Shown piece by piece: positions 21,322 through 54,740 of a stretch of 64,000 nt of DNA (the stretch's first letter is position 1; every line of letters starts with the position of its first letter). The stretch is from Cyanidioschyzon merolae (Eukaryota): NCBI GenBank assembly GCA_000091205.1, contig AP006483.2, one strand, 5' to 3'. The position numbers and the translations under genes are program-made. The notes beneath the pieces are model-generated. The model saw only the letters and a program-made list of their open reading frames with translations. It ran no database searches and was not told where the DNA came from.

Positions 21322-23832
21322 TCAGAGCGGATGCGCTGATCCCGCTGGACCCGCTTCAGAGCTGGGCAGCGGCGACGACGACGATGACGCTTCTGCCTCT
21401 TTTTCAGACTGCCCAGAGGTGATCCGCGCACGGCGCTGGCGCTGCGCATTCGCCAAACGACGAAGCGCAACCAGCTCCGCAGTTACCGATTCCGCCTCCA
21501 AATTGCGGCCCCAGACGAGCGCATACGAGCTGCTCGGACTCATCCCACAAACGTAGAAGCAGGGCGGAGGCGTAAAGCCGTTAAAACCACCAGCCAGACT
21601 CAGCGTATAGGCACCCATGCCAGTCCACCAGAGCCAGTCACCAATTTGCAGCGGTTGCGGCAGGATGACGTCGCGGCGCACCACGTCGAGGGAATCACAT
21701 GTCGGCCCGAATATCGTGCATCGCACCGGATGCAAGAGGGACGCATCCGTAGCACAGGGTGGAATGGGTTCCGGAAGTAGCAACCTCGGCGTGAACGTTA
21801 CACCGAGCAGCGCTGCATCCTTGAAGCTTCCGTACATACCATCTCCAATATAATAGTCCATACCGCGTTTCAGTGGCGTTGGCGTTGGCGTATCCTTCCC
21901 GTTGACACCGATATGCTTGGGACGTGCGCTGATCACCTGCGTCGCCAAGATCTGTGCTGCACCGATAAAATAGCGGCCTGGCTCGGCGATCACATCGACA
22001 CCGCTGGAGGCCGGAAACAACTCCTCCAGGGCCGGTCCCAAACGAGCAGCAATTTCGGCAAACGAGATCGGCGCGTCACCATCATGGGCTGGGAATCCGC
22101 CACCGATATCGAGAATCGTGAGCGGTTCTCCCAGAATCACCTCTGCCATATCGAAGACTTTGCGAGCATCCTGAAGCGCTTGATAGTAGGCGGCAAAGGA
22201 GCGCGCCCCGCTGCCCACATGGAACGCAACGCCGACGACGCGGACGCCGAGCTCGCGAGCCACGCGTAGCAGCTCCGGCACATCCTCCAGCGACGCTCCA
22301 TACTTGCTGCTCAGGGGGCACAAGGAGTCTTGATCATGCGTTGCGATACGCAGAAGCATCCGCGGCACCGGAATCATGTGTTGGTTATCGGTTCCCAGCG
22401 TACCAGCCGCCGTGCTGCTGCAGCTGCTGCTGCTGCTGGGCTCGTTCGACGGTCCAGGTGCACCTGTCGATCCGCTCGCGTCTGCCACGGGGCCAAATTG
22501 ACTCCCCGCGTGACCAATCGCGATCCCGGCTACTTTGCAGGCGGCCCAGTAGACGTCCCTAACCTTGTACAACTCGAGTTCGTTGTCGAATGTCATTAGG
22601 GACACACCGTGCTTCTCCAGTGCGTAGCGTATTTGTGGAGGTGCCTTACACGGGTTAGCGTATACAATACGCCGGGGGTCAATCCCTGAGCCGCCGAACC
22701 CTACACCGCCGACCGGGAATCCTTTCTCCTTGCCCGACGCCGCCAGCGCTGCGCAGGTATCCATCACCAGATCAATTTCGGTCCGGGACGCACAGTCGAA
22801 GCCGCATCCTAGAGCCGCCAGTACCGCGACAACACAGCGATCGGGGTTGCATTTCACTGCGTAGTGAGGGCGCACGCGCGGCAAGAGTCGCCGAAATTGC
22901 CAATACTGGCGAGCGACATGTCCCAGATCAACCACATAAAATGCCGACAAATCCGGAGACAAACGCGCGTACTGGGCATGGCTTGCGGTCGGTTTCCCGG
23001 TAATGATCGCTCGGGCATAGGCAGCCATCGCTGCCGCGGACGGTGAGATGGTATGGTCTCCACCGATGCGGTGGTTGTCGTGCCCTGAATCGGTTTCCAG
23101 GCCCGTGTCAGACTGCATAATCATTTCCGCCTCTTCTGTCCAGGCATCGGGTTCGCTATTGCCGGCAACCGCAGACGTTCCGGGCGCCGAGCAGGTGTCG
23201 CCGTCCGGCTGGGGCTTGGCTCCGATTCCATCCGTCGTATCTGGATCGAAAGCAGAATGTAGCTCACGAAAGAGTGCCGGCTCTGGGAGCACCAGACGAT
23301 CAATGGCAACGCCGGGCAGCGACGTCATAATCCTTTCCAGAAAATCTTCCTCGGATGGATCCAGGATCTGCAGCAGTTGCTGTTGTTGTTGTTGCTGCTG
23401 TTGCCGCCGCCTCAAAAGTTTCTGTACGAGAACATTTTGCTGTCGAAGACTTTGGGCGATCTGCTCGGATACCGAACGATGAATTCCACTCCCCAGCTTG
23501 CTTTTTCGGCGACTCCCTGGAGACACCGGTAGCGTGTGCTCTACACCATAACCACGAAATGAATACGCCGTGCCATGCACTGGCGCCGAGGACTCGCGCG
23601 TCAGCGACGCTGGCAACGAGCGCGCGACCGACACTTGGCAGTCCCTGTCGCAGCTGCCTGTAAGTGATTCGGCCCAGGGCGTTCGCTTGCCTCTCTGGCA
23701 CTCGACAACGCTGGTTCCCGAAGCTGTCACCATGCTCGATGCCGGAACCCCGTCGTCGGCCACTTCGTCGCCACTGTGCTCCGCTGAAAAGCGCATACGC
23801 AGCGACTTCGCTCGCGAGTCAGATATTTGCAT
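21322..23832 (-). CDS. ODC: Ornithine decarboxylase (PLP-dependent group IV decarboxylase) with long N-terminal (~290 aa) and C-terminal (~70 aa) extensions and an internal low-complexity insertion
   Basis: FYVVDLGHV...PHYAVKCNPD matches the ODC PLP-lysine motif (P)FYAVKCN. GVAFHVGSG matches the FHVGSG motif, DIGGGFP the glycine-rich loop, YYIGDGMYGSF the ODC motif, and CTIFGPTCDSLDVV the GPTCD(G/S)LD substrate-specificity motif. There is an S/T-rich insert between the MTFDNELELYKV and LLRIATHDQDS blocks. A poly-Q run (RRRQQQQQQQQQLLQ) sits in the N-terminal extension. Confidence 0.85.
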   Translation of the reverse strand: MQISDSRAKSLRMRFSAEHSGDEVADDGVPASSMVTASGTSVVECQRGKRTPWAESLTGSCDRDCQVSVARSLPASLTRESSAPVHGTAYSFRGYGVEHTLPVSPGSRRKSKLGSGIHRSVSEQIAQSLRQQNVLVQKLLRRRQQQQQQQQQLLQILDPSEEDFLERIMTSLPGVAIDRLVLPEPALFRELHSAFDPDTTDGIGAKPQPDGDTCSAPGTSAVAGNSEPDAWTEEAEMIMQSDTGLETDSGHDNHRIGGDHTISPSAAAMAAYARAIITGKPTASHAQYARLSPDLSAFYVVDLGHVARQYWQFRRLLPRVRPHYAVKCNPDRCVVAVLAALGCGFDCASRTEIDLVMDTCAALAASGKEKGFPVGGVGFGGSGIDPRRIVYANPCKAPPQIRYALEKHGVSLMTFDNELELYKVRDVYWAACKVAGIAIGHAGSQFGPVADASGSTGAPGPSNEPSSSSSCSSTAAGTLGTDNQHMIPVPRMLLRIATHDQDSLCPLSSKYGASLEDVPELLRVARELGVRVVGVAFHVGSGARSFAAYYQALQDARKVFDMAEVILGEPLTILDIGGGFPAHDGDAPISFAEIAARLGPALEELFPASSGVDVIAEPGRYFIGAAQILATQVISARPKHIGVNGKDTPTPTPLKRGMDYYIGDGMYGSFKDAALLGVTFTPRLLLPEPIPPCATDASLLHPVRCTIFGPTCDSLDVVRRDVILPQPLQIGDWLWWTGMGAYTLSLAGGFNGFTPPPCFYVCGMSPSSSYALVWGRNLEAESVTAELVALRRLANAQRQRRARITSGQSEKEAEASSSSSPLPSSEAGPAGSAHPL

Positions 23833-24485: not shown

Positions 24486-27400
24486 GCGCGCTCCCACAGC
24501 CGCAATCGATGCGATCCTCGGTGCTGGGTGTCGATGCACGTACGCATCCATGCATCTATGTACGTCAGTACTGTAGAAGCTAGTCGCTCGCATCTATGGG
24601 TATGCTTCATCATTGCATACACCAAGGAAGACAGTCAGCAACTGGCGACCCGAGTGCTCAGCGCTGCCCGCATCGAGCGCCAGTAGCGCTCTGTGCATGC
24701 AGCAGGTAGCCTACGCAGCGTCGAGCAACTCGAGCGGCATGGGCGATATCTCGAATCCATACGGCCGTCTGGGCTGGAGCAAATGGGAACAGATCGGAGC
24801 ACCGTGGTGGACACATCGGCACTGATGCCCGATAGAAGCGGGGCATCATACAGAGGAGGCAGCCGCCGACACCGGTCCGCTTGTGGATCGGCTTCCACGA
24901 AAGCATGCTGCTTGCCGGAAACGGTGTCCGAATACCGCGCAACAGCGAATTGGACTGGTGCTGGTGGGCAATTTTTACGTTCTCTTCGAGTTGCCTGGTG
25001 TCTGCTGGCTCTGAAATGCATCTGGAGCCGTCGAATGCATCGAAAGGCGTTGACGGAACGATTGAGGGCGTTCTCGTATGCACTGGAACGGTGGATGTCT
25101 CAACGTCGCACCCGAACTGCATTGAGCTGGGTATCTGTCGCCAGGCTGTAGCCTTCGCGCTGTCGCCGTATGTCATAGGCCAATAGTCGGTCTGGGAGGT
25201 CCTTGCATGAGTGCCAGGCCCGTGCATTCGCGTAACCCTGCTGCTGGAAGCGTAGCGCCAACATTCGTGTCGCGGCTTCCGCCTGAAGCACATCAACTAC
25301 TTCATGGATATCCTGCAGAAGAGATGCAGGCTCAGCCATACGTATGAAGCTGGCTGCAAAAGTGATGCGTCTCTGCGATGCAAGGCAGGCAACTGAAGAT
25401 CACAGGTGGTTGTTTCGGGGCCCAGCACGAGACACGTTCCCGTGAGAAGGCCATTTCCTGGCTCGCCAGTATACCCTGTATCATCTCGTTTTTTATTTTT
25501 ATGAGGAATCGACCTCAGCACTGGACCAGTTTTCACAGACTGAGCGCGCGTGCACCGGAATCGAGAGCATATCCGTATGGAAGGCTTTCACTGTGACGGA
25601 CTGTTCTGAAATGCTCCTTGCCAGCCAGCCAACCAGCCATCAAGCACCAGCGTCTTGGATGGACTCGAACAAGAGACTGCAGCCTGTTACGCTTGACCGG
25701 AATGCCACGAAAGCCGTCGACGAAACGCTGCTCACCGTCTGCGCACGACTGCATCGGGCAAGCGTCTGTGAACCCGGGTGCATCATGCGGCCCTCTGTGC
25801 AACGCCTGCCCGCTAGATCTCATACGCAGAGCATCTTCGCAGAGTCTCATTCTTAGTGTCTATCGTTCACAGGCATGATCATTACGTGCCCGCAAACTCT
25901 GTGTAATGTCGCAAGCGCCTATTCCATTCGCTGACGTCTTTAGTTCGTCATGCATTTCACTCGAGACGCAAAGGCATATCACAGAACGCATCCAGCTTCT
26001 CAGACGCGGCCGTGACCTCTGGAACATACAAAACAACATCGTGTATTCCGGTATGCGCGCTCCTTGACGCTGCGCCAAGCAAAGCCCTTCCCAGTCGTCT
26101 GCAGCCGCCGTCTCGAAGCGTCGATGACCATCGACAGCCGCTCAACACCCAGATCGGCATGAAAGGGGACGACTTCTCTACCTCGGGTGTGCACACTGAA
26201 GTTTGAGCCACCTCTAACTATGGTGAGCACCAGCATTTGCTGGCTTTTTCTGTAACAGCGTTCTTTTCTTCTCACCTCTCTATGGATTTACATACGCCTG
26301 TCTATGAAACACCTCGAGCTCTGTTATTACACTCGAACGATGTTCATGGCGGCAATAAACTCCCAATTTCGTTGCTTATGGCCGCTATCAATGCATTTCG
26401 TACACGGGCAGAGGATACGTTCCGTCCTTCGCTCGACGTTTCCATCTTCGTTCTAAACAGTCACAACGAGCTCTGCGCAGCGACGACGCTTGCCAGTGCT
26501 CAGGTGTGCCCAGAGGTCCGCCACATCACAGGCAAGTTCCAGGGGTGCCCCGTGGCATGCGAACGCCTGCTTCATCGCGTCGTACCCGCTCTTAAGGCGC
26601 ACACAAGGCCTCCGTCGACGTCCTCTTCTGCTCTCGTGCGCATTGCCGTGCTGTACGCTCACGGGCTTCTTCGAAGCGATGCTCTCGGCGAGTATTCCGT
26701 CCGCTGTACACGCAAGCGAACGCTGTTCCATTCCATATTGGATTTGTGGACTACGATGTTGTCCATGATAAAACGAGAACCAGAAGGACTATCCAGACTA
26801 GGGAACACGTCCATAAAATTTCGTTCCATCTACGTGTCCTTCATGTAACGCTGTGACGCAGTCTCAACGGGAAATGATCGCAGTGATGACGCAGATCCGA
26901 GTCCAAGACCCGTCTCCATTCAGACAGCCAGGAACAATGTCATGTTTTTATGCTCCTCAATCGATCGGTGCGAATTTCGGCATCCTCGCATTGCCTTGAA
27001 CCAGAGCGATCGAAAACTGGAAAGAAGCCCGCTTTTATCATGCCACTTGAAAGCAAAAGAGAAGCGTACAGGCATGCATCTCGGCATTGAACAATGATTC
27101 CTGTCATTTCACGAATCCTCGTTCGACACCATGTCGAATCATCTGGATCCCGAGGACGCACCGAATTCCAGCAGCTCAGCCTCAATGGAACAACTTTTGA
27201 AAACCCGACCGAGTATTCAGAAACGATCTATGAATCCGTGAGCCCTCATTGCTGCATTCGCAAGTCGAGGATGTTCATCCAAAAAGTACATCCGAACAGT
27301 ATCGAAAGCCAGCAACAGAGTGCCAAGTTTCGTGTTCCATTCTCACCCGCTACAGATAAAGAGCATATTCGCTTCTATCCAGTCATGGATCATACCATAT

Positions 27401-27654
27401 TTCCGCTGGATGAACCTATCGCTCGTATCTCCGTTGGCAAGACGCGAATCCAGACACAAACACCCACCCACTCGCAAGAGCACACACGCGGGCCTCAGGT
27501 TGAACGCCGCCACCGGGCCGCAGCGCTCGCAAGCCATAGACCACGTCGGACAATCCCAGCGTTTCGAAAGCCTGGTCGTCGTCGTCGTCTTGAGAGCGCC
27601 TTTTGGTCTATGTGTGTTGAAGAGAGTTCCTTTTGACCACTACAGCGCCTCAGT

Positions 27655-30600
27655 ATGCCTGTATACCGACCGCTCTTTCGCTGCGCGTTGAGTGTGTTCC
27701 TCTGCCGCAACTCGTACCGAACACTGGGGCGTGCTGTAGGATTCTGGCGAGCCAACGGAACATCGTGGCTTCTGCGAGGTTCCCGTCTGGGTATCGCACT
27801 CTTGAGCAGTTGGCTTCTTCTTTTATTTATTGGTGAGTTCCTAGCGTCACTCGTGGAGTTGTCTGTGGACGTTCTTACCCGTATTGGTGTTGATGCTAGG
27901 CGCAGCACGGAGAGCGAAGCCCCGCCACGTCCTTCGCAGCACGCTCTGGGGGCCGCTTTCCTGGCTCGTGCCGCTCGAATCGTTCGACTGACCGCTCCCT
28001 TCGGCTTGGTTCAAAAGTTCAGACTCGCCTTTGGAACGAGACTGGTGTTGTGTTGGGGCACCAAGCCCTCACACCCGTGGGCTGAGCAAGGCAAGCGAGA
28101 GCTTCGTCCTGCCGCAGTAGACCCGGGCGCGCTGCTGGGGCAAGGCGTTGCTCGTCCGAGGGCCTCGAATACACCTTTGGACTGGGTACCGCACCTGCAA
28201 TGTTGCCATGATTTGCTACCCGAACCGGAACGACGATGCCCGATGAAACGGTGTTTCGGCATCGGCGTCTATGTACCTGCTCTGGAGTTGGTCTATGGCG
28301 CTTCCGCTGCCGAGACAAGTGCTACGAGCAACGCAAGCGAGTCGAGCGCTGACCCGGTCGTTGTGACCATTCGCGTTGAACAGCTCTATGTTCCAGTCAG
28401 CGCGCTCGTTATTCTCCTCGGTCGCTATCTGTACGGGCGTCTTCAGCGGCACCACAGAGGCGCGTCTTCGTTCGGGCGCCGCGAAACGCACCCTAGTTCC
28501 TTTTGTAGAGTGTGGAAACAGCGGCTGGAGCATGCACTGGTCAAGATGCTGTATGGGATCCTATCTGGCATCCGAGCAGCCCAGGTGGCAACGGTGCTGG
28601 TTTCCGCGAGCAGTCCGGACCAGGGGGTCTTCACACTGCAGCGCTTAGAATGCGAACTTGATCGTAACACCCCAGCTGTGCAGTTTCATGGCCGTTATGG
28701 GCTCTATGCCAAACCCAAGCGATCCGGTGCTGAAGATCATCAAGAAAGCTTTGCCCGAGCATTCTTGCGAGCGCTCCGTGGTACCCAGTCTGAGCAGCAG
28801 TATGCCGGTATCGGAGTTTTTGGCTGCGTTCACCTCTGCCGTAGCCTCGAGGAGCGCAACACGCGCTGTCATCAGAACGCCGCCATCATTGCCTGGTACG
28901 AGACACCCGGGCAGTTGGGTTGTGGAGCCGCGCTGCTCGGCTCAACCCACGGTGTCTACCGATCACGTCCACCGGGTCGAGATGCAGACAAGGAAAGCAT
29001 CGACTCGCCGCCGCACAGCAGTGTTGCGATAGCCACACCGCCGACCTCGGCGCGAAGGAATGCCGACCTTCAGTTCGAAATGGCAGGGATCGGCCTGGAA
29101 CTGAGCTTCGAGCTCCTCGTTGAACTGGCACAACGCTACACCCAGCAGTGGTTACGCAGACAAGCACGAAAAACAGAACAGAATCGGGTCGGAAGGTCGC
29201 GTTCGGATTCTGGTGCGAAACTGTTGCAGAAACTCTCGCACTTGGCGATCTCGCTGCATTTGCGCAACGTCAAACTTGACTTTATTAGCAAGCGTGATGA
29301 GGTGCGTCTCGAAGCATCCGAGCTGGAACTTTTTCTGGATCAAAGCAAGGCAGGTGCATCCGCCGTAGGGGCATTCATGGTCCCCGAGGCTCGTCCGTTT
29401 GCCAAGTCCCTGCACATCCGCCTGGATCAGGCCGCTGTACAGCTGTTTCACAGGCTAGTGACACCTTCGATAACAACGAAGGATGACGGTGCCTTGAACG
29501 CCACGCTAACGACAGTGCTGCGCTGCGGGATGATATTCGGATCCCTGGAGGAGGCTGTGCTCGAGCGTGTCGAGCTGCAGGTCGCACAACACCCTCTGTT
29601 GGTGATTGCTCAGCTGGCAGTGGTGCAGACTTTGCGACAGGTGCAGGTACAGCGTCCTCGCTTGGACTGGTGCCCCGACGCCCAAGATGGACTCGAAGCG
29701 ATCTGGCATCGTTGGCGAACCTTATTACCGCAGTTGGATGAGCACTTGCAGCGGAAATCTCAGAAGCGCAGCGAACTGGCGCCCACACGAATTCCAGAGG
29801 ATTCCATCTCGTTGTGGCAACTCAGCGTTGTGGGCGAGGCCAGCGCCTGGGGTCGCTTTCCTCACGGCAATAACTCGGGTATGGTATTCGATGCCTTGCA
29901 GATGCCGCTGCAGCGGCAGCCGTGGCGCATACGTGTCGAACGCCTATCCTGGTTTGTGGATGACCGCTGTATGGGGCATGCAGCCCAGACGTCTTTCTGT
30001 GTGCACTGGGGCAAGGAGAAGCGTCTAATTGAGGCCCACACTGCATTGCTTCGCTTCCAGATGCCCTATGGATTTCGTTTCCTACAGCAATACAACCTGT
30101 TTTTGGCGCATTTGCGGCTCTACTTTCGATATCGCAAGACGTTTGGCCGCCATACCGGCACACGCTCCGCCCGAGCTGCTCCAGGCACGGCGACTTGGTC
30201 GGGTACGCGGAAGTCTATTTTTCCCGACGTGGACATTCGAGCCGATGAGGCGGAGTTCGTGCTCCGCGATCACGAACTGGAGCACTGGTTCAACGAACGC
30301 TTCCTGGTGATGGTGGACGAGGCGCAGGAGCGGGTTCTTCGAGAGCGGCTCGCACACTCCATGTTGGAGGCGAATCGACCCAGGCAGCAGGAGATATTGG
30401 CGGATGAACTGGAGCACCAGCACGCAACCCTCTATGTCAGAAGAATGCAGCAATGGCAGCAGCAGAGACTTGAACTCGAGCGGGCCGCAGCACTGCACCA
30501 GCAAGTGGTCGCTCCTTGGATGCCGGACGCTGCTTTCCAACAGTTGTTTGTGGCTAGAGCGATGAACGTACGTTTCCGTCTGATCCGCTCGCGACTGAGT

Positions 30601-33600
30601 CGCGCTGAAGAGAACCGCGAAGCAGCAGCGTTCGCGGCGCGTATGGACGCCACATTCGGTGAAGGTGCAGTTTCCAGCCAGGCGAATACCGAGACCGCTT
30701 GGAGCTCGCGTTCCAAGCAAGCCTCGGAAACTGCACCATCTGATGAACCGGCGAAACCGGAAGCAGGCAAAGGATGCACCCGCATTGCCGGAGAAGCTGA
30801 ACTGGTGCACCGCAGCGCAGCTGCCTCGTCGTCTGGGGCACCCACGATGTCCACATATAGCACTGCTTCTGCTGCTGTTGCTCCTGGAGCAGTGCAACCG
30901 CCACCGTCACCGCCACCACCTTCAACACAACGAGAACATCTCTTGGACCCGAACCAGTGGTACACGCTCGGTCGCCGACGCCTCGTCATTGATATCGATG
31001 GTGAACTGGTCGTCCATTTGCGTCATTTCCCCTTTCCGGTGGTGCAGTTGGAGAAGGGACTCCGCCTCCGGGGAACCGTTGCGCTCGGTGAACTGCACGT
31101 TTGCGAGCCGTTCGCTGCTGAGCGAGACCTTCAGCTCAGTCAAAGCTGCTGGGTGCGCTACCGGCGAGCCATCTCCCCGAATCGCTGGTACTGCGACTGG
31201 GACCTCATGAGCGGTGGACGCTTTCGGCTGAACTGGTCCCGTGCGCTGATTTCTACCCTCAAGGATATGATGGATGGCTTTCAGGGCTTTGCGGGTGCAG
31301 GCAAAGACCCGAGTCCGCTGCTCAACTGGTGGAATCAACTGAGACTGTTGATTCACGGCCGTTGGCGACTGCACTGCCCCGAGGGCTTTCAGATTGTCCT
31401 GTTGAGCAGCGCGCCTTACAACCCTGAGTATGACGAGCGGATCGAGTGCTGCCTAACGGGACCTCGTACGGGGTTATGTATCGATCGCCGACTGGGAACA
31501 GTGGAACTTGAAGCGGACGCCTGGAAGTTGCTGTTCCATGTAGCGACATCGAGCAACCAAGGAGCACCGCTCCACGCCCCGAGTCGACTGTGCGGTGCTG
31601 AACCCATTCACTTGCTTTTCCGGGTCGATGCGGAGCCCGCGCTTGGTGTTCCCGTCTCTGCGTACCCACATCCACTGGGGTATCCTCGAGGTGTCCAGGG
31701 GCCGGGAGAACGCCTGCCTCCCGCTGTCCCGTCGACGTTGGTACCGCTGACTGCTGCCTACCAGGGGAGTTGCGCTCGACTCGCAGCGCGAGAAAACGTT
31801 ACGTTGGGCACTTTGCCTGCGAGCGATGCCTCCAGTGACGCAGCAGGCGCTAGGTGTTTCACGGATTCAAAGCAGCTGATAATGGAGCCGGATGCGGAAA
31901 CGGTTACCCCGTCGCATACTCGGGAATCCGCCGGTGTTCACGCAGATAGCACGCTCGCGGATACCGATACGAAAACAAGCGAACATGCCTCTTCTACGGC
32001 TTCGATTCGCAGAGAGCCGTACGCAGTGTGGTATACACCATTGGCGGACTACCCGCAACACGATACATACCGGAGCTTTCGGGCTCGAGCGCTGCACCTA
32101 TCACTCCAGTGCAAGCTCTCGTGGAGTTCCAGTGTAGCATCCGGAGAGCACGATGCGCAAGGCGCTCAGCTAACCACGTACGCTTTGGCGTCAATGCTCT
32201 TCCGAGTGCTCGAACTGGCCGGAGTGAATCGACTACTGGGGCAGTCACCGTATGCCTTCCGCCCAGTATCCCGCAAAGTCGGCCTCATCCGTTCGGGAAA
32301 GCGGCGCTATGGTGTACGCTTCGGGGAACTCGTGTCAAGTTTCAGCCTCTCCGCATCGGTCCCCAAACCCTGGGCACTCCGCTGCTACGATGCTTTGCGT
32401 CCGACGGAGCACTTTACAGTGCGAGCAGGGCCCGTAATGGCGACGCTGTGCTGGTGCCGTCCAACTGGCTCCGCGTTTGAGTCTATTCGCGGCCGCGCCT
32501 TTGAGCAAAATATCCGAGTCTCGGCAGACTGGCTCCGCATCGACCTGAACCGTGGTCTGCTGCTGCTGCAGACCGGGCGAATCCACTATGAGCGTGCACT
32601 CGAAGTTGAAAAGATGCAGGGCCTGCTTCTGCCCAGCACCCTGGATACGCTTCGTATCTGGCCGGATTCCTTCGCTGCAGTATTCGCCACGGCGAAGAAA
32701 GTCTCACAGCGCACTCTGCTCGCCGGATCCGATGCACTTCATGCGCTGTTTCCGGGGAGCAACTTGGGGAAAGGTGCTGCTGGTGCTGCCGCCACTGCAC
32801 CTGCTACCAGAGTCGCCAAGCCGGAGCGCACGCTTGTCGGGTCGCTACGGGACCAGCACGCCGCGGAAGCGGCTCAGAGCGTCGCCGGCACCGCTTCTGG
32901 TGCAGTGAACACCGGCGCTGGCACCAGCGGCAGCGGTCTCTGGAACAGCGCACTGAGCGCCCCGAAGAGCACCCAAAGTCAGCAGCATGAGCTGGGCAAC
33001 CGCGCTCGACGTCTCGCCAATGCGCTCGGGATGTCGCTCTCGATGCAGCGCAAGCCAGAGACGGATGTCCTGGACTTGAGGGATTTGTTGCTGCAGGAGC
33101 ATCTAGAGCAGGTCAAGCGGCAGCAGCAACAACAACAACAACAAGAACAGCGGCAGCGAACGCGTTCCGGAAGCGCTGCAGACGCTGCCGCACGCTTCAT
33201 GTCCACGCGGGGCACTCCGGCGAGAGAGCGTGCCAGCGACGCTTCGCTTCAACCTCGAAGCACAGCGATAGCCACTCTCGATGCTGATACATCTGGAGCG
33301 GCTTCGACGACGGCAGCGAGCAGCAGACAAAGAAGAGCGCAGAGCCTGGAAGCGCCGCCATTGTGGCACCAGCGCGGCACTTGGACGAAACCTGGTCATC
33401 AGGGCGCTTTGCCGCAGTCGCTCACCAGTGAGCGACTCTCGGCAACGAGACGCCGTCCAGATGAAGCGAGTCGAGCGTGGGAGCAGTCACGAACGAGTGA
33501 GCGGCGCTCGGAAACGACACTCCATGCAGGCGAGACAACTCAAGTACCGGAGCCGTTGCCACAGACGACAGAGGCGGGCGCTCATGAAGCCAACCTGACC

Positions 33601-36312
33601 TCGCCAAACTGGATAGCTTCGTCTTCGGAACGTCCACCAGTTGCTGGTCAGCAGCCGCTACATCCACGCGTTCCCGAGACAGCCGATATCGGACTGCCGG
33701 ATAGCAGTTCCGGTCGAAGTCGTTACACGCAACGTCGCCAACTGCTTTCCCAGCGTGTTCGCTTCCAGTTGACGCTCATCGAGCCCGCTGTCTGGATTCG
33801 CTCCGAACAGGGACGGGATGCGGTGCGTCTGTCAGCCAACCAGGGCATTCTGGATGTCGTGGAGGGCGTCTGTCACCGCGGTGCCCAGGACCTGGGTACC
33901 GAAATCGATTATCGAGTCTGTTTACGCGGTGTGAATATCACCGTCGAGGGCCAGGAACTGTCGCATCCAGCGGAATCGGCACCTATCTTTCTCTACTATA
34001 TTCATCCGGTACCAGCGGAGGACTTGCGGGCTCGCCACGTGGAGGTAGTGGTACCGGCTCTGCACCTGGCGGCCACCGCTCCCGAGTTCCACACGCTTTT
34101 CCGCATTGTACGCGAAGTTCTTCTGAGCAAAGGTAGCCAGGCGTTGCGCGTAAGTCGCATTCTCAAGCCGCTCCGTCAACGCGCTGTGGTCTTCGAGGAT
34201 GCCGACTTTGTGATTGAGCGAGCGCTGACGCTTCGCGCCTTGCTCCAGGATGTGGATCTCTTACTGCTTCATGGCGGTGAGGAGAGTCTCGCCTCTCTCT
34301 GGACGCAGCTGGATAGCAGCAGCGGTAGTACAATGCCACCAGAGAGCCGGCGCGGCAAGATATCCACGGAGGTCGGCAGCACAGGCGCTTCAACCGGTGA
34401 ACGTCTCCTCTGGACGGCAAGTGGCGGTTTGCGCATAACCGGACGAGCAAGTGCTGGTGCTACTGCTGACGCTGCTCTCCGCGAGTCCGAGGAAGGCGCT
34501 GCATCGCGTCCGACGGCACTGAGCGTTGCGACAAGCGCCGGCACTGCCGCCCCACAACCCGTATCCAAGTTACCGACATCCGAACAAGCGTTTGCGTTCC
34601 GTTGGTGGCTTGCTGCACAAGCCCGGGCCTGGCAAGTACTGCTTGTGGATGCATTACGTGGACGCATCCATTATGATGATCGGTCTACAGCGCTGGCAGA
34701 TGAACTCGAGGATCTCGACATCATTCTGGAAGTGGCGCGGGTGCGCTGGTCTCTGCTGCTAAGTCGCCGGCGAGCGTTCCTAGAAGTGAGCATTCGGCGC
34801 ATCTATGGGTTGCAGCGGCGCTATATGAGTGGACGTGAGCTCAACGACTATGGCATTACGGATCTGGTGGTGCAGAATCGCTCACGAGACCTCGACTTGG
34901 GCTGCGTTATTCGTGGTGACTCGTTTCGCTATGTTTCGGTCTCTGAAGGCGTCATTGGTGGGATTATGCGATATTCGCGGTTGACACTGGACATGGCAAA
35001 GACGCTGCATATTCGCCTCTACGGTGTACTGGTGGATCGTCTCAATGAGTACTTTTTCGGGGTGGCTACGAGCACGAATGCTACCGCTGCTGCATCCGCC
35101 GCACAGGCGACAGTGCCCGCTGCGAGCACCGTAGCGGCACCAGTGCAGCCTCTGTCTGAGACGTCGTCTCTTCCGGGAATGTCGCCTGCAGTCGCAGATG
35201 GCAGGAGGTCGAGCGTATCCAGCATTCTTGCCGGGCAACCTGAGACGAGATCAGCGCACGAGCCGCTGCACGAGGCCCGCGAGGGCTCACTGAACGCGAG
35301 CACTCGACGCAGTCCGTCGCGTTCCGCTGACAACGAAACGCTTGCCCCGACAAGTGGTGGTGGTGGTGGTGCTCACGCTCACGCCACTGCTGGTACTGCT
35401 GGTGCTCTGGCAAGCGTTGGAACTGCACTCGGGCATGATGCCGCCACCTCAGCGTCACCGCCGCAAGCCTCGTTTGGTGCACCGCCTGTGGATGCTGCGC
35501 TTACGGGTACTCCTGGCTATCCCGCTGACCCTTCATCGACGCTATTTTTGCTGCCGCTGGAGGAGAGCGCTCAACGCTACGCCTCCGCCAGCGAGTCGCG
35601 GAGCAGTGCGCGTCCGGGTCGTGGCATCACCGCAACAGGAGCGACCAACACCTCTATAACGCCCGTTCAGATCGACTATGCGTACTTATCCTCATTGGAG
35701 ATCATTGGCTCGTACCACAGCGGCACCGGGAAGGAGCACAGTTTTCTCGATTTCGACGATCTCTGTGTGCTGGTGCCGTCGCTCATGTACCAGGCAGTGA
35801 CAGGTTCGTGGCAAGGTTTTATCGAAATGGTGCGTCGAGACTTTGCCTCAGCTTTTGTTCGCGACGCAATCGGGCAGCTGAGCAAGCGCAAGTTTCTCGG
35901 GTTCCTGCGACGGCCTTTTCGAAGTATATCTACGATCGATGATGGGCGCTCTGCAGGCGAACCAGGCAGCCAGGTGGCGGTACTGGCGTCGCCAGCAGCC
36001 ACAGAAGCAGCCATCCGCCGACGTCGACAACGGGGACGCACGCCAATTGTACAGGCCGTGGAACAGGCTTCCGCAGCAGCAGCAGTACGAAGCACAGCTC
36101 GTGAGCATCTCAGTGAGCTGGTACTTTTCGGTAGTTTACGGCTTGTACGCAGGGCGCTGATGCGTGATCCCCCGGCACGAAGCGCTGCGATGAATCCGGA
36201 GCAGGCGTCAGAGCCACTGAGGCACGAGGATGCAGAGGACAACAACGAAGACGACGGCGACGAAGAAGAAGAAGATGATGATGATGACGAACCGTTAGCT
36301 TTGCCAGCCTAG
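27655..36312 (+). CDS. Giant (2885 aa) FMP27/SABRE/KIP/Hobbit-family bridge-like lipid-transfer protein (BLTP2-like), with an N-terminal transmembrane anchor and an acidic C-terminal tail
   Basis: An 8.66 kb uninterrupted ORF. A hydrophobic helix (LGIALLSSWLLLLFIGEFLASLV) sits near the N-terminus, as in Hobbit/SABRE/Fmp27. The segment GFQGFAGAGKDPSPLLNWWNQLRLLIHGRWRL resembles the family GFWDK-box (GFWDKlRL..HG; SABRE-type ..WWDdmR..iHG). Length and mixed beta-rich/low-complexity composition fit the RBG-repeat lipid-transfer family. Contains poly-Q (RQQQQQQQEQRQR), poly-A/S/T linkers and the tail EDNNEDDGDEEEEDDDDDE. Confidence 0.55.
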   Translation: MPVYRPLFRCALSVFLCRNSYRTLGRAVGFWRANGTSWLLRGSRLGIALLSSWLLLLFIGEFLASLVELSVDVLTRIGVDARRSTESEAPPRPSQHALGAAFLARAARIVRLTAPFGLVQKFRLAFGTRLVLCWGTKPSHPWAEQGKRELRPAAVDPGALLGQGVARPRASNTPLDWVPHLQCCHDLLPEPERRCPMKRCFGIGVYVPALELVYGASAAETSATSNASESSADPVVVTIRVEQLYVPVSALVILLGRYLYGRLQRHHRGASSFGRRETHPSSFCRVWKQRLEHALVKMLYGILSGIRAAQVATVLVSASSPDQGVFTLQRLECELDRNTPAVQFHGRYGLYAKPKRSGAEDHQESFARAFLRALRGTQSEQQYAGIGVFGCVHLCRSLEERNTRCHQNAAIIAWYETPGQLGCGAALLGSTHGVYRSRPPGRDADKESIDSPPHSSVAIATPPTSARRNADLQFEMAGIGLELSFELLVELAQRYTQQWLRRQARKTEQNRVGRSRSDSGAKLLQKLSHLAISLHLRNVKLDFISKRDEVRLEASELELFLDQSKAGASAVGAFMVPEARPFAKSLHIRLDQAAVQLFHRLVTPSITTKDDGALNATLTTVLRCGMIFGSLEEAVLERVELQVAQHPLLVIAQLAVVQTLRQVQVQRPRLDWCPDAQDGLEAIWHRWRTLLPQLDEHLQRKSQKRSELAPTRIPEDSISLWQLSVVGEASAWGRFPHGNNSGMVFDALQMPLQRQPWRIRVERLSWFVDDRCMGHAAQTSFCVHWGKEKRLIEAHTALLRFQMPYGFRFLQQYNLFLAHLRLYFRYRKTFGRHTGTRSARAAPGTATWSGTRKSIFPDVDIRADEAEFVLRDHELEHWFNERFLVMVDEAQERVLRERLAHSMLEANRPRQQEILADELEHQHATLYVRRMQQWQQQRLELERAAALHQQVVAPWMPDAAFQQLFVARAMNVRFRLIRSRLSRAEENREAAAFAARMDATFGEGAVSSQANTETAWSSRSKQASETAPSDEPAKPEAGKGCTRIAGEAELVHRSAAASSSGAPTMSTYSTASAAVAPGAVQPPPSPPPPSTQREHLLDPNQWYTLGRRRLVIDIDGELVVHLRHFPFPVVQLEKGLRLRGTVALGELHVCEPFAAERDLQLSQSCWVRYRRAISPNRWYCDWDLMSGGRFRLNWSRALISTLKDMMDGFQGFAGAGKDPSPLLNWWNQLRLLIHGRWRLHCPEGFQIVLLSSAPYNPEYDERIECCLTGPRTGLCIDRRLGTVELEADAWKLLFHVATSSNQGAPLHAPSRLCGAEPIHLLFRVDAEPALGVPVSAYPHPLGYPRGVQGPGERLPPAVPSTLVPLTAAYQGSCARLAARENVTLGTLPASDASSDAAGARCFTDSKQLIMEPDAETVTPSHTRESAGVHADSTLADTDTKTSEHASSTASIRREPYAVWYTPLADYPQHDTYRSFRARALHLSLQCKLSWSSSVASGEHDAQGAQLTTYALASMLFRVLELAGVNRLLGQSPYAFRPVSRKVGLIRSGKRRYGVRFGELVSSFSLSASVPKPWALRCYDALRPTEHFTVRAGPVMATLCWCRPTGSAFESIRGRAFEQNIRVSADWLRIDLNRGLLLLQTGRIHYERALEVEKMQGLLLPSTLDTLRIWPDSFAAVFATAKKVSQRTLLAGSDALHALFPGSNLGKGAAGAAATAPATRVAKPERTLVGSLRDQHAAEAAQSVAGTASGAVNTGAGTSGSGLWNSALSAPKSTQSQQHELGNRARRLANALGMSLSMQRKPETDVLDLRDLLLQEHLEQVKRQQQQQQQQEQRQRTRSGSAADAAARFMSTRGTPARERASDASLQPRSTAIATLDADTSGAASTTAASSRQRRAQSLEAPPLWHQRGTWTKPGHQGALPQSLTSERLSATRRRPDEASRAWEQSRTSERRSETTLHAGETTQVPEPLPQTTEAGAHEANLTSPNWIASSSERPPVAGQQPLHPRVPETADIGLPDSSSGRSRYTQRRQLLSQRVRFQLTLIEPAVWIRSEQGRDAVRLSANQGILDVVEGVCHRGAQDLGTEIDYRVCLRGVNITVEGQELSHPAESAPIFLYYIHPVPAEDLRARHVEVVVPALHLAATAPEFHTLFRIVREVLLSKGSQALRVSRILKPLRQRAVVFEDADFVIERALTLRALLQDVDLLLLHGGEESLASLWTQLDSSSGSTMPPESRRGKISTEVGSTGASTGERLLWTASGGLRITGRASAGATADAALRESEEGAASRPTALSVATSAGTAAPQPVSKLPTSEQAFAFRWWLAAQARAWQVLLVDALRGRIHYDDRSTALADELEDLDIILEVARVRWSLLLSRRRAFLEVSIRRIYGLQRRYMSGRELNDYGITDLVVQNRSRDLDLGCVIRGDSFRYVSVSEGVIGGIMRYSRLTLDMAKTLHIRLYGVLVDRLNEYFFGVATSTNATAAASAAQATVPAASTVAAPVQPLSETSSLPGMSPAVADGRRSSVSSILAGQPETRSAHEPLHEAREGSLNASTRRSPSRSADNETLAPTSGGGGGAHAHATAGTAGALASVGTALGHDAATSASPPQASFGAPPVDAALTGTPGYPADPSSTLFLLPLEESAQRYASASESRSSARPGRGITATGATNTSITPVQIDYAYLSSLEIIGSYHSGTGKEHSFLDFDDLCVLVPSLMYQAVTGSWQGFIEMVRRDFASAFVRDAIGQLSKRKFLGFLRRPFRSISTIDDGRSAGEPGSQVAVLASPAATEAAIRRRRQRGRTPIVQAVEQASAAAAVRSTAREHLSELVLFGSLRLVRRALMRDPPARSAAMNPEQASEPLRHEDAEDNNEDDGDEEEEDDDDDEPLALPA

Positions 36313-39568: not shown

Positions 39569-40531
39569 CTATCGCTCTATTGCATACGATAGGGTTGATG
39601 AGACGGATTCCCCTCTTCGACCATGCTCCGGTTGCTTCACCGACACAGGTTGCTCTTTGGCTTTCGAGTTTGCCTCCGGCGATGCTGGTGCTTGTGGCAC
39701 AGTGCGAGCACGTTGGCGATCGTGCAGGTCCTGAGCCATCTGGTCGGCAAGTTCAGCTGCACTTGCTCCTAGAGTGCCGTGCTGGTTCCCCAGCCGCCGC
39801 TGCACCAAACGCTTTGCATGGTACGCAAATGACGTTCGATCCTCCTTAAAGTTCCGCGCGAGCGCCAGAAGTGCCTTATCGCCGTCGGCCGCCAAGTCTA
39901 CAAGCCGATCATACTCGGCGCTGCTCAGGGCGCTGCCACCGCCAACGCTGTACAGAATGTGCACGAGCTGTATCGCCAGATCCTGCATTTCAGCCTCTGT
40001 TCGAGGCGTCGTGACTGAGCTACCGCTCGTCTCAGGGGCAGCGCTCTTGACGCGACCTGGGACCTGGCTTGAGCGAGGTATCAGGGGCGGCGCGGACTCG
40101 AGCTTGACGCCTCTGCGCGGTATAACAGCCTCTTGAGGCGAAACCAGCGACCAAAAGAGCCAGCTCGCATCCGGGAGCGCTCGTACATCGGCGTTCGTCC
40201 GTACGGGCTCGGTGAATATAGGAGCATAAAACACGGATATCTGTTTGATGTCGTCACCACGCAAGACAACGGTGGGAAACGGGGGCGGCTGCGCTTGCGC
40301 TATTCGCTGCCTCAGCGAAGTTACGGTCATGGAGTAGAGTTTAATGGTCGCCAAGTCACCATCAGGGTACTCGATGCAGCGCAGCGGCTTCCCGAAAATA
40401 TAGGACTTGATGACGTTGAACACTATCGAAGAACCTCCGAGCAGCTTGAACGTGGCGTCAGCTTTGCCTAGTACTGCCGGAATGAGCAGTGGGGCCGGCG
40501 CCATGCGCCAGCGGCGGCCAGTGCGCTGCAC
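39569..40531 (-). CDS. Hypothetical protein (320 aa), no domain recognised
   Basis: A 963-nt ORF with coding-like composition in an otherwise AT-richer region. The N-terminal ~100 aa looks like a small beta-rich domain. The C-terminus is Ala/Gln/Arg-rich. Confidence 0.35.
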   Translation of the reverse strand: MQRTGRRWRMAPAPLLIPAVLGKADATFKLLGGSSIVFNVIKSYIFGKPLRCIEYPDGDLATIKLYSMTVTSLRQRIAQAQPPPFPTVVLRGDDIKQISVFYAPIFTEPVRTNADVRALPDASWLFWSLVSPQEAVIPRRGVKLESAPPLIPRSSQVPGRVKSAAPETSGSSVTTPRTEAEMQDLAIQLVHILYSVGGGSALSSAEYDRLVDLAADGDKALLALARNFKEDRTSFAYHAKRLVQRRLGNQHGTLGASAAELADQMAQDLHDRQRARTVPQAPASPEANSKAKEQPVSVKQPEHGRRGESVSSTLSYAIER

Positions 40532-54170: not shown

Positions 54171-54712
54171 GAAGCAGGCGTTCTCAAGATGCTGCGAACA
54201 CGGCGAGTATTTGTGTGTATTTATGATGCACCCTTAGTTCGTCTGGTCGAGGCTTGGATGCAAGCACCCAGCTTGTGCCATCTTGGGAAGGGTGTCATGC
54301 TATTTGGCCGAGCATCTATGGATCTAGTTCCTTGATCGGAAACAGCTGCGTCTATGAGGTTGCACCTTATGCATTGTAGCTGCCGATGACTTGCGGTACG
54401 AATGTGCATCTTGTTGTGCTGGCGAGCAAGGCCCTTGTTGGTGCCTCGAATCGATCGCTAATCGGCAGTCAATGGGGAAAGCTTCCAAGTAAGCCGGTTT
54501 GTCGGAGCATGGATCGATATTTTCTGCCGCGCGTGCACGCCCCGCTTTGATCCCTCGTAGCGGATTCGGATTGGAGTGCTCTGCGAAGCGCACAAGAAGC
54601 GCACTCCTTGAGCTGTCATGTTCCTCTGCGCAATTCCCACCGAGAGGCATGCCTGCGTCTTGGCTTCCCTGGATTCGAATCCAGGAGTGCAAAATCGAGT
54701 TTCTGAGGCAAC

Positions 54713-54740
54713 CAGGCAGGCAGGCAGGCAGGCAGGCAGA
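54713..54740. repeat. (CAGG)7 microsatellite
   Basis: Direct read: caggcaggcaggcaggcaggcaggcaga. Confidence 0.9.

What the first reader, a model, noticed from the sequence alone, without database searches (positions are those of the whole stretch)
27655..36312. Giant single-exon gene for a SABRE/Hobbit/FMP27-type bridge-like lipid-transfer protein
The largest feature in the window is an 8.66 kb uninterrupted ORF. It starts with a transmembrane-helix-like segment and carries a block (GFQGF...NWWNQLRLLIHGRWRL) resembling the GFWDK signature of the FMP27/SABRE/KIP/Hobbit (BLTP2) family. It also has long Ala/Ser/Thr-rich linkers, a poly-Q tract and a strongly acidic tail. Members of this family are ER-anchored tube-like lipid transporters at membrane contact sites. 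A 2885-aa member encoded without introns is notable, and it is the best candidate here for a poorly characterised system.
Basis: partly seen in the sequence, partly recalled or inferred. Interest (0 to 1): 0.55.

Follow-up and report, generated by a model that had tools for sequence, protein, structure and literature searches.

The report
Red-alga BLTP2/Hobbit lipid-bridge gene, already annotated

Summary

Its claim of notability does not. C. merolae has only 27 introns genome-wide, and the extra length is disordered Ala/Ser/Thr linkers.

Three lineage-specific oddities remain. The first ~650 aa have no detectable similarity to any relative except a sister species. A 44-aa Arg-rich, acid-free stretch precedes the hydrophobic anchor, so the flanking charges are inverted relative to canonical BLTP2. 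The near-invariant Asp-Lys of "GFWDK" reads N-W-W-N-Q.

Verdict: an already known kind and an already annotated gene, of low interest.

The parts
27655..36312 (+). Complete CDS of C. merolae CMA053C (2885 aa plus stop), a BLTP2/Hobbit-family protein
   Evidence: ORF. 100% identity over 2885/2885 aa to P0008 = XP_005535052.1. Pfam PF10344 at 73.9 bits.
27655..27786 (+). aa 1-44: Arg-rich N-terminal extension (8 Arg, no Asp/Glu) ahead of the hydrophobic helix
   Evidence: N-flank net charge +8 here and +5 in sister P0002, against 0 to -5 in canonical relatives. There is no other Met before M197, and an in-frame stop lies at 27634-27636. The P0002 alignment runs from aa 5, at 28% identity over aa 1-50. 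Helical amphipathicity does not exceed shuffled sequence.
27787..27855 (+). aa 45-67: the only strong transmembrane-like segment (LGIALLSSWLLLLFIGEFLASLV), the presumed membrane anchor
   Evidence: Kyte-Doolittle 2.11, the highest in the protein. P0002 has an equivalent segment at aa 39-57.
27856..29631 (+). aa 68-659: N-terminal region with lineage-specific sequence and no detectable similarity to other BLTP2 proteins; fold unresolved
   Evidence: No Pfam hit. phmmer, hmmsearch and hhalign find only the sister P0002. AlphaFold pLDDT is about 30. The region's length, 852 aa before the handle block, is close to the ~700-950 aa seen in relatives.
29632..30204 (+). aa 660-850: confidently modelled RBG-type unit (five long beta-strands at 721-803, then helix 809-830)
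   Evidence: AlphaFold pLDDT 73-92. hhalign places aa ~440-878 on family profile positions 434-829, 85% probability.
30208..30501 (+). aa 852-949: strand plus a long helical hairpin (helices 874-904 and 909-949). By position this is the Hobbit 'handle' just upstream of the GFWDK block.
   Evidence: Pfam Hobbit model positions 946-1032. hhalign 97.6%, E 4e-12. D872, R896 and R930 are invariant, and D888 and E889 nearly so, in 24 sequences. pLDDT 84-94. Equivalence to the fly handle (aa 928-1003, PMC13104988) is inferred from position only.
30652..30924 (+). aa 1000-1090: Ala/Ser/Thr/Pro-rich disordered linker
   Evidence: Composition. 14-32% identity and 60% gaps against P0002.
30937..31689 (+). 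aa 1095-1345: GFWDK-region block, the best-conserved part. The motif counterpart N-W-W-N-Q is at aa 1224-1228 (nt 31324-31338).
   Evidence: Pfam 52.9 bits, model positions 1136-1275. hhalign 99.1%, E 1e-18. Column counts over 141 relatives are.
31987..32769 (+). aa 1445-1705: central conserved block
   Evidence: Pfam model positions 1352-1399. hhalign to profile positions 1198-1466, 77%, E 2e-5. 52-76% identity to P0002.
32770..33666 (+). aa 1706-2004: ~300-aa low-complexity linker containing the Q8 tract (nt 33121-33144) and a moderately conserved segment at aa 1751-1850
33667..34299 (+). aa 2005-2215: C-terminal block 1 (beta-strands 2029-2098, then a helical bundle at 2142-2222)
   Evidence: hhalign to profile positions 1551-1735, E 9e-5. 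BLASTP to Porphyra, E 1e-5. AlphaFold pLDDT 65-75 on the strands. 80-92% identity to P0002.
34537..35139 (+). aa 2295-2495: C-terminal block 2 (six long beta-strands at 2362-2456, then a helix)
   Evidence: AlphaFold pLDDT 69-90. hhalign to profile positions 1838-1956, E 2.5e-4. 72-90% identity to P0002.
35572..35934 (+). aa 2640-2760: terminal block (four strands at 2671-2717, then helix 2719-2752)
   Evidence: phmmer hits 20 relatives about 100-250 aa before their C-termini. hhalign to profile positions 2054-2185 of 2201, 97%, E 3.6e-11. pLDDT 74-95. 98% identity to P0002 over aa 2701-2750.
36007..36204 (+). aa 2785-2850: conserved basic C-terminal tail (RRRRQRGR patch plus predicted helices)
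   Evidence: 80% identity to P0002 over aa 2801-2850. R2790, R2793 and R2795 are invariant in the red-algal alignment. Helices are predicted at low confidence.
36211..36309 (+). aa 2853-2885: strongly acidic tail, specific to this species
   Evidence: Sequence. 6% identity and 69% gaps against P0002.

Best explanation
This is the single-copy BLTP2/Hobbit/Fmp27/SABRE orthologue of the red alga Cyanidioschyzon merolae (CMA053C).

Shown here:
- It is an intact, conserved gene in conserved gene order.
- It belongs to the Hobbit family by profile score and by same-order homology from about aa 660 to about aa 2800.
- It has one strongly hydrophobic helix near the N-terminus.
- Its well-modelled parts are beta-meander-plus-helix units with amphipathic strands, and they resemble the solved BLTP1 bridge.

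Inferred from the family literature (PMC7613979, PMC12270902, PMC12406788, PMC13104988):
- The N-terminal helix anchors the protein in a donor membrane, which is the ER in other organisms.
- The stacked RBG units form a long hydrophobic groove along which phospholipids slide in bulk to an acceptor membrane, which is the plasma membrane in animals and yeast.
- The conserved helical 'handle' and the conserved basic C-terminal tail serve to dock the far end.

The roughly 650-800 residues beyond Galdieria's 2196-2260 aa are disordered low-complexity loops between the folded blocks.
For: - Identity with CMA053C and the existing BLTP2 name.
- Pfam PF10344 at 73.9 bits against a 24.5 cutoff, with matched stretches in the same order as the model (946-1032, 1136-1275, 1352-1399).
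- 268 relatives at E<=1e-3 in an exhaustive search, mostly 2000-3200 aa, with the match at the expected position.
- 20 of 20 tested relatives are Pfam Hobbit.
- The ranking of relatives follows phylogeny (Galdieria, then Pyropia/Porphyra, with Rhodelphis, animals and fungi further off).
- hhalign blocks run in the same order up to profile position 2185 of 2201.
- The C-terminal block hits 20 relatives near their C-termini.
- AlphaFold gives confident strand-meander-plus-helix units at aa 721-830, 2029-2098, 2362-2468 and 2671-2752.
- Predicted strands alternate hydrophobic and polar residues more than shuffles do: 0.40 against 0.26+-0.04, reached by 4 of 5000 shuffles.
- Gene order is shared with the sister contig.
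Against: - aa 1-659 show no detectable homology to any BLTP2 outside the sister species and were modelled at pLDDT ~30, so the N-terminal RBG units are not demonstrated.
- The charge distribution around the anchor helix is inverted relative to canonical family members. This leaves ER anchoring and topology unproven.
- The Asp of GFWDK (D in 140 of 141 relatives) is Asn here, and the Lys is Gln.
- The mean pLDDT of both models is only 48-51, and a continuous groove was not modelled.
- No localisation, lipid-binding or expression data exist for this gene.
Confidence: 0.85

Rival explanations
1. It is a BLTP2-derived bridge that has been retargeted in the Cyanidioschyzon lineage. On this reading the rewritten N-terminal ~650 aa, with an Arg-rich acid-free leader before the hydrophobic helix, anchors the protein in a donor membrane other than the ER (for example a mitochondrial or plastid envelope) or gives it a different topology. 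It would then serve a different contact site in this minimal cell.
For: - Flank charges are inverted: +8 and 0 here and +5 and -2 in the sister, against 0 to -5 and +1 to +6 in canonical relatives. Galdieria is intermediate.
- The leader is real coding sequence: the P0002 alignment runs from aa 5 (28% identity over aa 1-50), and there is no alternative start.
- The N-terminal 650 aa are unrecognisable to family profiles.
- The near-invariant GFWDK Asp is lost in just this lineage.
- Green plants lack the PM adaptor Bbo/Hoi1/EEIG1 (PMC13104988), so targeting does vary within the family.
Against: - The leader is not more amphipathic than shuffled sequence, so it is presequence-like only in composition.
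- The length of the N-terminal region matches canonical proteins, which fits divergence rather than replacement.
- The handle and the basic C-terminal tail, which are the known targeting elements, are conserved.
- Fast divergence alone is a sufficient explanation: this gene is 48% identical to its orthologue, against 72% for its neighbour.
- No targeting predictor could be run.
Confidence: 0.1
2. It belongs to a different RBG family (VPS13, ATG2, BLTP1/Tweek or BLTP3/SHIP164), and only its central part resembles BLTP2.
For: The best solved-structure match is BLTP1, not BLTP2, and the N-terminus is unassignable.
Against: - The PDB copy holds no BLTP2 structure at all: a profile of 20 BLTP2 proteins finds nothing. 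BLTP1 is therefore simply the nearest solved RBG protein.
- Pfam reports only Hobbit, with no Chorein_N, VAB, ATG_C or BLTP1 families, even at E<=10.
- The C-terminal blocks align with BLTP2 C-termini.
- All the nearest relatives are Hobbit family.
Confidence: 0.02
3. The long ORF is an annotation artefact: a pseudogene, or several fused genes.
For: An in-frame ORF (27094-27636) lies directly upstream, separated by a single TGA. Half the protein is low-complexity, or was modelled poorly.
Against: - 2885 codons run without a stop.
- The orthologue has the same start and the same block order, on a contig with the same gene order.
- Near-identical full-length copies (2885-2892 aa) occur in many independent metagenome assemblies.
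- Conservation is block-wise, at 70-98%.
Confidence: 0.01

Closest known systems
Galdieria sulphuraria Gasu_33330 (XP_005705847.1, P0034) and G. phlegrea P0032: cyanidiophycean BLTP2 orthologues
   Same: Both belong to the same Pfam family. The handle, GFWDK and C-terminal blocks occur in the same order. UniRef gives the G. sulphuraria protein the same name. The N-flank of the anchor is also basic, at +4.
   Different: They are 2196-2261 aa against 2885 aa here. They lack most of the long Ala/Ser/Thr linkers. Their N-flank is short (9-13 aa). One search found Asn at the GFWDK Asp position only in the sister species P0002, so by implication Galdieria keeps the Asp. Their N-terminal ~650 aa do not align detectably with C. 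merolae.
Drosophila Hobbit / human BLTP2 (KIAA0100) / yeast Fmp27-Hob1 and Hob2
   Same: Shared features are the N-terminal hydrophobic anchor, the RBG beta-groove units, the helical 'handle' immediately upstream of the GFWDK block, the conserved C-terminal block followed by helices, and a basic patch in the tail (PMC7613979, PMC13104988).
   Different: - The canonical TM helix sits at the extreme N-terminus with a neutral or acidic N-flank and a basic C-flank. Here a 44-aa flank of +8 charge precedes it.
- GFWDK reads NWWNQ.
- The extreme C-terminus is acidic, not basic.
- Whether the adaptor Hoi1/EEIG1/Bbo exists in C. merolae is unknown.
- ER-PM localisation and PE transport have been shown only for the animal and yeast proteins.
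Arabidopsis SABRE / KIP / maize APT1 (plant BLTP2)
   Same: Both are Archaeplastida BLTP2 proteins of similar large size (my own recollection is about 2600 aa). They belong to the same family according to Levine 2022 (PMC7613979).
   Different: [quoted passage not shown] No direct comparison was made here, because no green-plant sequence was identified among those examined.
C. elegans LPD-3 (BLTP1), PDB 9cap_A
   Different: It belongs to a different RBG family, with 6-9% sequence identity and no Pfam BLTP1 signal in CMA053C. It ranks first only because no BLTP2 structure is in the PDB copy.

Membership tests
BLTP2 / Hobbit / FMP27 / SABRE (Pfam PF10344) | Whole-protein score above the curated Pfam gathering threshold | tested here: met
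   73.9 bits against a cutoff of 24.5, E 5.5e-21, four stretches. The stretches follow the order of the model.
BLTP2 / Hobbit / FMP27 / SABRE (Pfam PF10344) | Same-order homology with family members beyond the central block, including the C-terminal region (the former Apt1 part) | tested here: met
   hhalign against a 20-member family profile: 850-1010 to 820-954; 1090-1345 to 961-1187; 1445-1705 to 1198-1466; and 2005-2885 to 1551-2125 (98%, E 2.8e-13). Run separately, 2640-2800 maps to 2054-2185 of 2201. phmmer with aa 2640-2885 hits 20 relatives near their C-termini.
BLTP2 / Hobbit / FMP27 / SABRE (Pfam PF10344) | Conserved GFWDK-region block (D-P-S-P-x-L-[PG]-[WF]-W-D-K-x-R-x3-H-G) | tested here: met
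   The block aligns at 52.9 bits (Pfam) and at 99.1% probability (hhalign). D1218, P1219, S1220, P1221, W1225, W1226, R1230, H1234 and G1235 are kept.
BLTP2 / Hobbit / FMP27 / SABRE (Pfam PF10344) | Literal Asp-Lys of the namesake GFWDK motif (a check on conserved residues, not a Pfam membership criterion) | tested here: not met
   C. merolae has N1227 and Q1228. Among 141 aligned relatives the Asp column is D in 140 and N in 1 (the sister P0002), and the Lys column is K in 114.
BLTP2 / Hobbit / FMP27 / SABRE (Pfam PF10344) | A single N-terminal transmembrane helix that anchors the protein (in the ER), with the rest in the cytosol | tested here: inconclusive
   There is one strong hydrophobic segment at aa 45-63/67, with an equivalent in the sister species. 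However, a 44-aa extension of +8 charge precedes it, and the flanking charges are the reverse of canonical members. No topology or targeting predictor was available.
BLTP2 / Hobbit / FMP27 / SABRE (Pfam PF10344) | N-terminal RBG units homologous to those of the family | tested here: inconclusive
   aa 1-659 give no significant hit by Pfam, phmmer, hmmsearch or hhalign, and AlphaFold pLDDT is about 30. Only the length of the region agrees with the family.
[quoted passage not shown] | Repeating units of about five beta-strands plus a helix or loop, forming a sheet with one hydrophobic face | tested here: met
   - AlphaFold units at aa 721-830, 858-976, 2029-2098, 2362-2468 and 2671-2752, with pLDDT 65-95.
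- The top PDB match in three searches is BLTP1 (9cap_A); weaker hits are TamAB chain B and the Vps13 N-terminal fragment.
- Strand amphipathicity exceeds shuffles, 4 of 5000.
- A continuous full-length groove was not modelled.
BLTP2 / Hobbit / FMP27 / SABRE (Pfam PF10344) | Helical 'handle' upstream of the GFWDK block (the adaptor-binding site in fly, yeast and human) | tested here: met
   Two long helices at 874-904 and 909-949, pLDDT 84-94. They match Pfam model positions 946-1032. D872, R896 and R930 are invariant, and D888 and E889 nearly so. Equivalence to fly aa 928-1003 rests on position only, and adaptor binding was not tested.
Other RBG families (VPS13, ATG2, BLTP1, BLTP3) | Family-specific domains (Chorein_N, VAB, ATG_C, PH, BLTP1 regions) | tested here: not met
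   No such Pfam family is reported, even at E<=10, for the whole protein or for eight pieces of it.
BLTP2 / Hobbit / FMP27 / SABRE (Pfam PF10344) | Bulk glycerophospholipid transfer at a membrane contact site | not testable with these tools
   This needs localisation and lipid-transfer experiments. No paper mentions CMA053C.

The most novel reading that the evidence does not exclude
In the Cyanidioschyzon lineage the donor-side end of BLTP2 has been rebuilt. It has an Arg-rich, acid-free 44-aa leader, a hydrophobic helix with inverted flanking charges, about 600 aa with no recognisable similarity to any other BLTP2, and an Asn in place of the almost universally conserved GFWDK Asp. On this reading the bridge is anchored in a different membrane, or with a different topology, than the canonical ER signal anchor. 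That would give a naturally retargeted BLTP2 in a cell with one mitochondrion, one plastid and minimal endomembranes.
Probability: 0.1. Interest if true: 0.5.

Novelty: already known. Interest (0 to 1): 0.15.

Why it matters
It matters little beyond correct bookkeeping. The gene is the expected single BLTP2 orthologue of a model red alga, and automated annotation already labels it correctly. BLTP2 is thought to date back to the last eukaryotic common ancestor (PMC7613979), so finding it here is unsurprising.

There are two modest points of value. First, C. merolae is genetically tractable and has an extremely simple organelle complement (my own knowledge), so CMA053C could be a convenient place to ask where BLTP2 bridges in a minimal cell. 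Second, this lineage shows how far BLTP2 sequence can drift while the core blocks are kept: the N-terminal third is unrecognisable, the signature Asp is lost, and about 800 aa of disordered loops have been added.

Tried and rejected
1. Word-index protein searches: all three were used. With the whole protein and with a 4-sequence alignment they returned only three clusters, probably because the low-complexity linkers filled the candidate list. With the clean GFWDK block alone the search returned only one fragment. The exhaustive HMMER search was needed to reach the family.

2. PDB sequence searches found nothing, whether with the protein itself or with a BLTP2 profile. No solved BLTP2 structure is available.

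3. The AFDB50 fold library was unavailable, so the models could not be compared with AlphaFold BLTP2 models.

4. Homology for aa 1-659 was sought with phmmer by segment, with a pair-profile hmmsearch using --max, with hhalign against 20 family members, and with hhalign against only the Galdieria-like group. Hits were non-significant and scattered in position. The 98% hit for aa 1-940 is carried by aa 660-940.

5. The idea that the N-terminal leader is a mitochondrial or plastid presequence: only its composition fits. The helical hydrophobic moment does not exceed shuffles (590 of 2000 for C. merolae, 1606 of 2000 for the sister). The idea is neither rejected nor supported.

6. Kinetoplastid origin was my first guess, from the GC content and the intronless genes. 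The exact match to C. merolae rules it out.

7. No tRNA genes, Rfam families or DNA tandem repeats occur in or around the gene. The poly-Q and acidic runs are too short or too impure to score as DNA repeats.
Full report
OBSERVATION. The window has one ORF at 27655..36312 on the + strand, 2885 aa, starting at ATG. It is the longest ORF in the window; the next longest is 1490 aa. A strongly hydrophobic segment lies at aa 45-63 (Kyte-Doolittle 2.11, the highest in the protein). The block GFQGF...NWWNQLRLLIHGRWRL is at aa 1208-1239. A Q8 tract is at aa 1823-1830. An acidic tail ends in DEEEEDDDDDE at aa 2869-2879. Ala/Ser/Thr/Gly/Pro-rich, hydrophobic-poor linkers lie at about aa 1000-1090, 1340-1450, 1700-2010, 2200-2300 and 2490-2660.

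WHERE IT COMES FROM. The first protein search returned a cluster that contains XP_005535052.1 / BAM78766.1, 'hypothetical protein CYME_CMA053C [Cyanidioschyzon merolae strain 10D]'. UniRef100 entry M1UMZ5 names it 'FMP27/BLTP2/Hobbit GFWDK motif-containing RBG unit domain-containing protein'. The ORF is 2885/2885 identical to it. The window is therefore C. merolae nuclear DNA, on a 422,616-bp contig. This genome has only 27 introns in all (PMC4829280), so a single-exon gene is the rule and not a notable feature.

The surrounding genes are ordinary eukaryotic housekeeping genes: an ornithine/arginine decarboxylase-like gene, a CXC/tesmin protein, EPSP synthase, a TPR protein, an ABC1-beta-lactamase fusion, a Ski2-like DSHCT helicase and HSP90. 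A 48%-identical orthologue (P0002, 2608 aa, assembly GCA_041825655.1) lies on a contig with the same downstream gene order: a 72%-identical unknown gene on the minus strand, then ABC1-beta-lactamase, then the DSHCT helicase. That supports the gene boundaries. The window contains no tRNA, Rfam family or DNA tandem repeat near the gene.

FAMILY MEMBERSHIP. Pfam's Hobbit/FMP27/BLTP2 model (PF10344) matches at E 5.5e-21, 73.9 bits against a cutoff of 24.5. No other family is significant. Scanning the protein in eight pieces shows that the Pfam signal is confined to the centre and follows the order of the model: aa 852-933 to model positions 946-1032, aa 1116-1256 to 1136-1275 (52.9 bits), and aa 1463-1514 to 1352-1399.

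The word-index searches stalled. I therefore ran the exhaustive HMMER search with a red-algal profile of aa 850-1700. It gave 268 proteins at E<=1e-3 and 69 at E<=1e-10, mostly 2000-3200 aa, with the match at about residue 900-1300. Twenty full-length hits were all Pfam Hobbit. The named ones rank as the species tree predicts: Galdieria sulphuraria and G. phlegrea first, then Pyropia/Porphyra, with Rhodelphis, a nematode, an ichthyosporean and a chytrid further off. This pattern fits vertical inheritance.

Profile-profile comparison of the C. merolae-plus-sister profile with those 20 proteins gives blocks in the same order along nearly the whole family profile:
- aa 850-1010 to profile 820-954 (97.6%)
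- aa 1090-1345 to 961-1187 (99.1%)
- aa 1445-1705 to 1198-1466 (77%)
- aa 2005-2215 to 1551-1735 (60%)
- aa 2295-2495 to 1838-1956 (43%)
- aa 2640-2800 to 2054-2185 of 2201 (97%)
- the whole of aa 2005-2885 at 98%, E 2.8e-13

The terminal block at aa 2670-2755 also hits 20 relatives directly, about 100-250 residues before their C-termini. The C-terminal half that Pfam missed is therefore homologous to the BLTP2 C-terminal region.

STRUCTURE. Two AlphaFold2 jobs, each with a 24-sequence alignment, gave low mean confidence (pLDDT 48 and 51) because of the linkers. The conserved blocks are nevertheless confident.
- In aa 1-1000: five long strands at 721-803 plus helix 809-830; strand 858-871; a long helical hairpin at 874-904 and 909-949 (pLDDT 84-94); and strand 963-976.
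- In aa 2005-2885: strands at 2029-2098; a helical bundle at 2142-2222; six long strands at 2362-2456 plus a helix (pLDDT 69-90); and four strands at 2671-2717 plus helix 2719-2752 (pLDDT 74-95).

HOW IT MOST LIKELY WORKS. The shown parts are family membership, the fold type of the conserved blocks, a hydrophobic N-proximal helix, and block-wise purifying selection (70-98% identity in the blocks against 10-20% in the linkers). The rest is inferred from the family literature (PMC7613979; PMC12270902; PMC12406788; PMC13104988). The helix anchors one end in a donor membrane, which is the ER elsewhere. The stacked RBG units form a hydrophobic groove that carries bulk phospholipid to an acceptor membrane, which is the plasma membrane in animals and yeast. 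The far end is positioned by the 'handle' helices and a C-terminal tail.

Both targeting elements have counterparts here. The helical hairpin at 874-949 occupies the position of the fly handle (aa 928-1003), with D872, R896 and R930 invariant and D888 and E889 nearly invariant. The basic tail at aa 2785-2850 (RRRRQRGR plus helices) is 80% identical to the sister over aa 2801-2850. The acidic last 33 residues are not conserved. The protein is about 650-800 aa longer than Galdieria's 2196-2260 aa, and the disordered linkers account for that difference.

WHAT IS UNUSUAL.
(a) aa 1-659 have no detectable similarity to any relative other than the sister, by Pfam, phmmer, pair-profile hmmsearch or hhalign, and they were modelled at pLDDT ~30. 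Only the region's length agrees with the family.
(b) Canonical BLTP2 proteins put the TM helix at residues 1-36, with a neutral or acidic N-flank and a basic C-flank. C. merolae and its sister have a 38-44-aa flank of +5 to +8 charge before the helix and a neutral or acidic flank after it. Galdieria is intermediate. The leader is genuine coding sequence: there is no alternative Met, a stop lies in frame upstream, and the sister alignment runs from aa 5. It is not more amphipathic than shuffled sequence, so it resembles an organellar presequence only in composition.
(c) The counterpart of GFWDK is N-W-W-N-Q. The Asp is D in 140 of 141 relatives, and the only other Asn is in the sister.

These points leave room for a retargeted or re-anchored BLTP2, which I put at about 10%. 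Rapid divergence is the simpler explanation: this gene is 48% identical to its orthologue, whereas the neighbouring gene is 72% identical.

COMPARISON AND NOVELTY. The closest known proteins are the Galdieria orthologues, and then the characterised Hobbit, BLTP2, Fmp27 and SABRE proteins. Membership is met on profile score, same-order homology, the GFWDK-region block, the handle, the C-terminal block and the RBG fold. It is inconclusive for the N-terminal RBG units and for anchor topology. It is not met for the literal Asp-Lys of the motif, which is not a membership criterion. The exact sequence already carries the BLTP2 name in UniRef, and the family is well described, so the finding counts as already known. 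No paper in the searched library mentions CMA053C or discusses BLTPs in C. merolae beyond a passing co-occurrence, so the gene is uncharacterised experimentally.

VERDICT. The finding is real, correctly interpreted and ordinary. Interest is 0.15.

Noticed in passing
window 27094-27636 (+): A 180-aa ATG ORF lies directly upstream of the gene in the same reading frame, separated by a single TGA (27634-27636) and 18 nt. The orthologue's protein starts at the equivalent Met, so this ORF is probably 5' UTR or promoter sequence. It was not checked against transcripts.
   Followed up: partly
window 31324-31338 (aa 1224-1228): The family's namesake GFWDK motif reads N-W-W-N-Q. Its Asp is D in 140 of 141 relatives, and the only other Asn is in the sister species.
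   Followed up: yes
window 27655-27855 (aa 1-67): The charges flanking the N-terminal hydrophobic helix are inverted relative to canonical BLTP2 (N-flank +8 and C-flank 0, against 0 to -5 and +1 to +6). Galdieria is intermediate.
   Followed up: partly
window 39569-40531 (-); L001 8996-10039 (-): A ~320-aa protein with no Pfam match is 72% identical between C. merolae and the sister contig and keeps its position next to the BLTP2 gene. It is a conserved protein of unknown function.
   Followed up: partly
window 54499-55701 (+): A 400-aa ORF (TTG start in the mechanical list) lies downstream of the DSHCT helicase and has no Pfam match.
   Followed up: no
window 44992-48150 (+): A single ORF combines an ABC1 atypical-kinase domain with a beta-lactamase-fold domain. 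The same fusion lies at the same relative position on the sister contig.
   Followed up: no
window 21322-23832 (-): An ornithine/arginine decarboxylase-like protein of 836 aa. The Pfam matches reported start at about residue 300, which suggests a long N-terminal extension with no assigned domain.
   Followed up: no
window 33121-33144 and 32905-33204 (aa 1751-1850): Inside the ~300-aa disordered linker, a ~100-aa segment that includes the poly-Q tract is 54% identical to the sister species, against 16-18% for the surrounding linker. It could be a conserved helical or interaction motif.
   Followed up: no
method note: For this low-complexity-rich protein the word-index homology search returned only 3 clusters, while the exhaustive HMMER search of cluster representatives found 268 relatives. 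A lack of hits from the former says little about proteins of this kind.
   Followed up: yes
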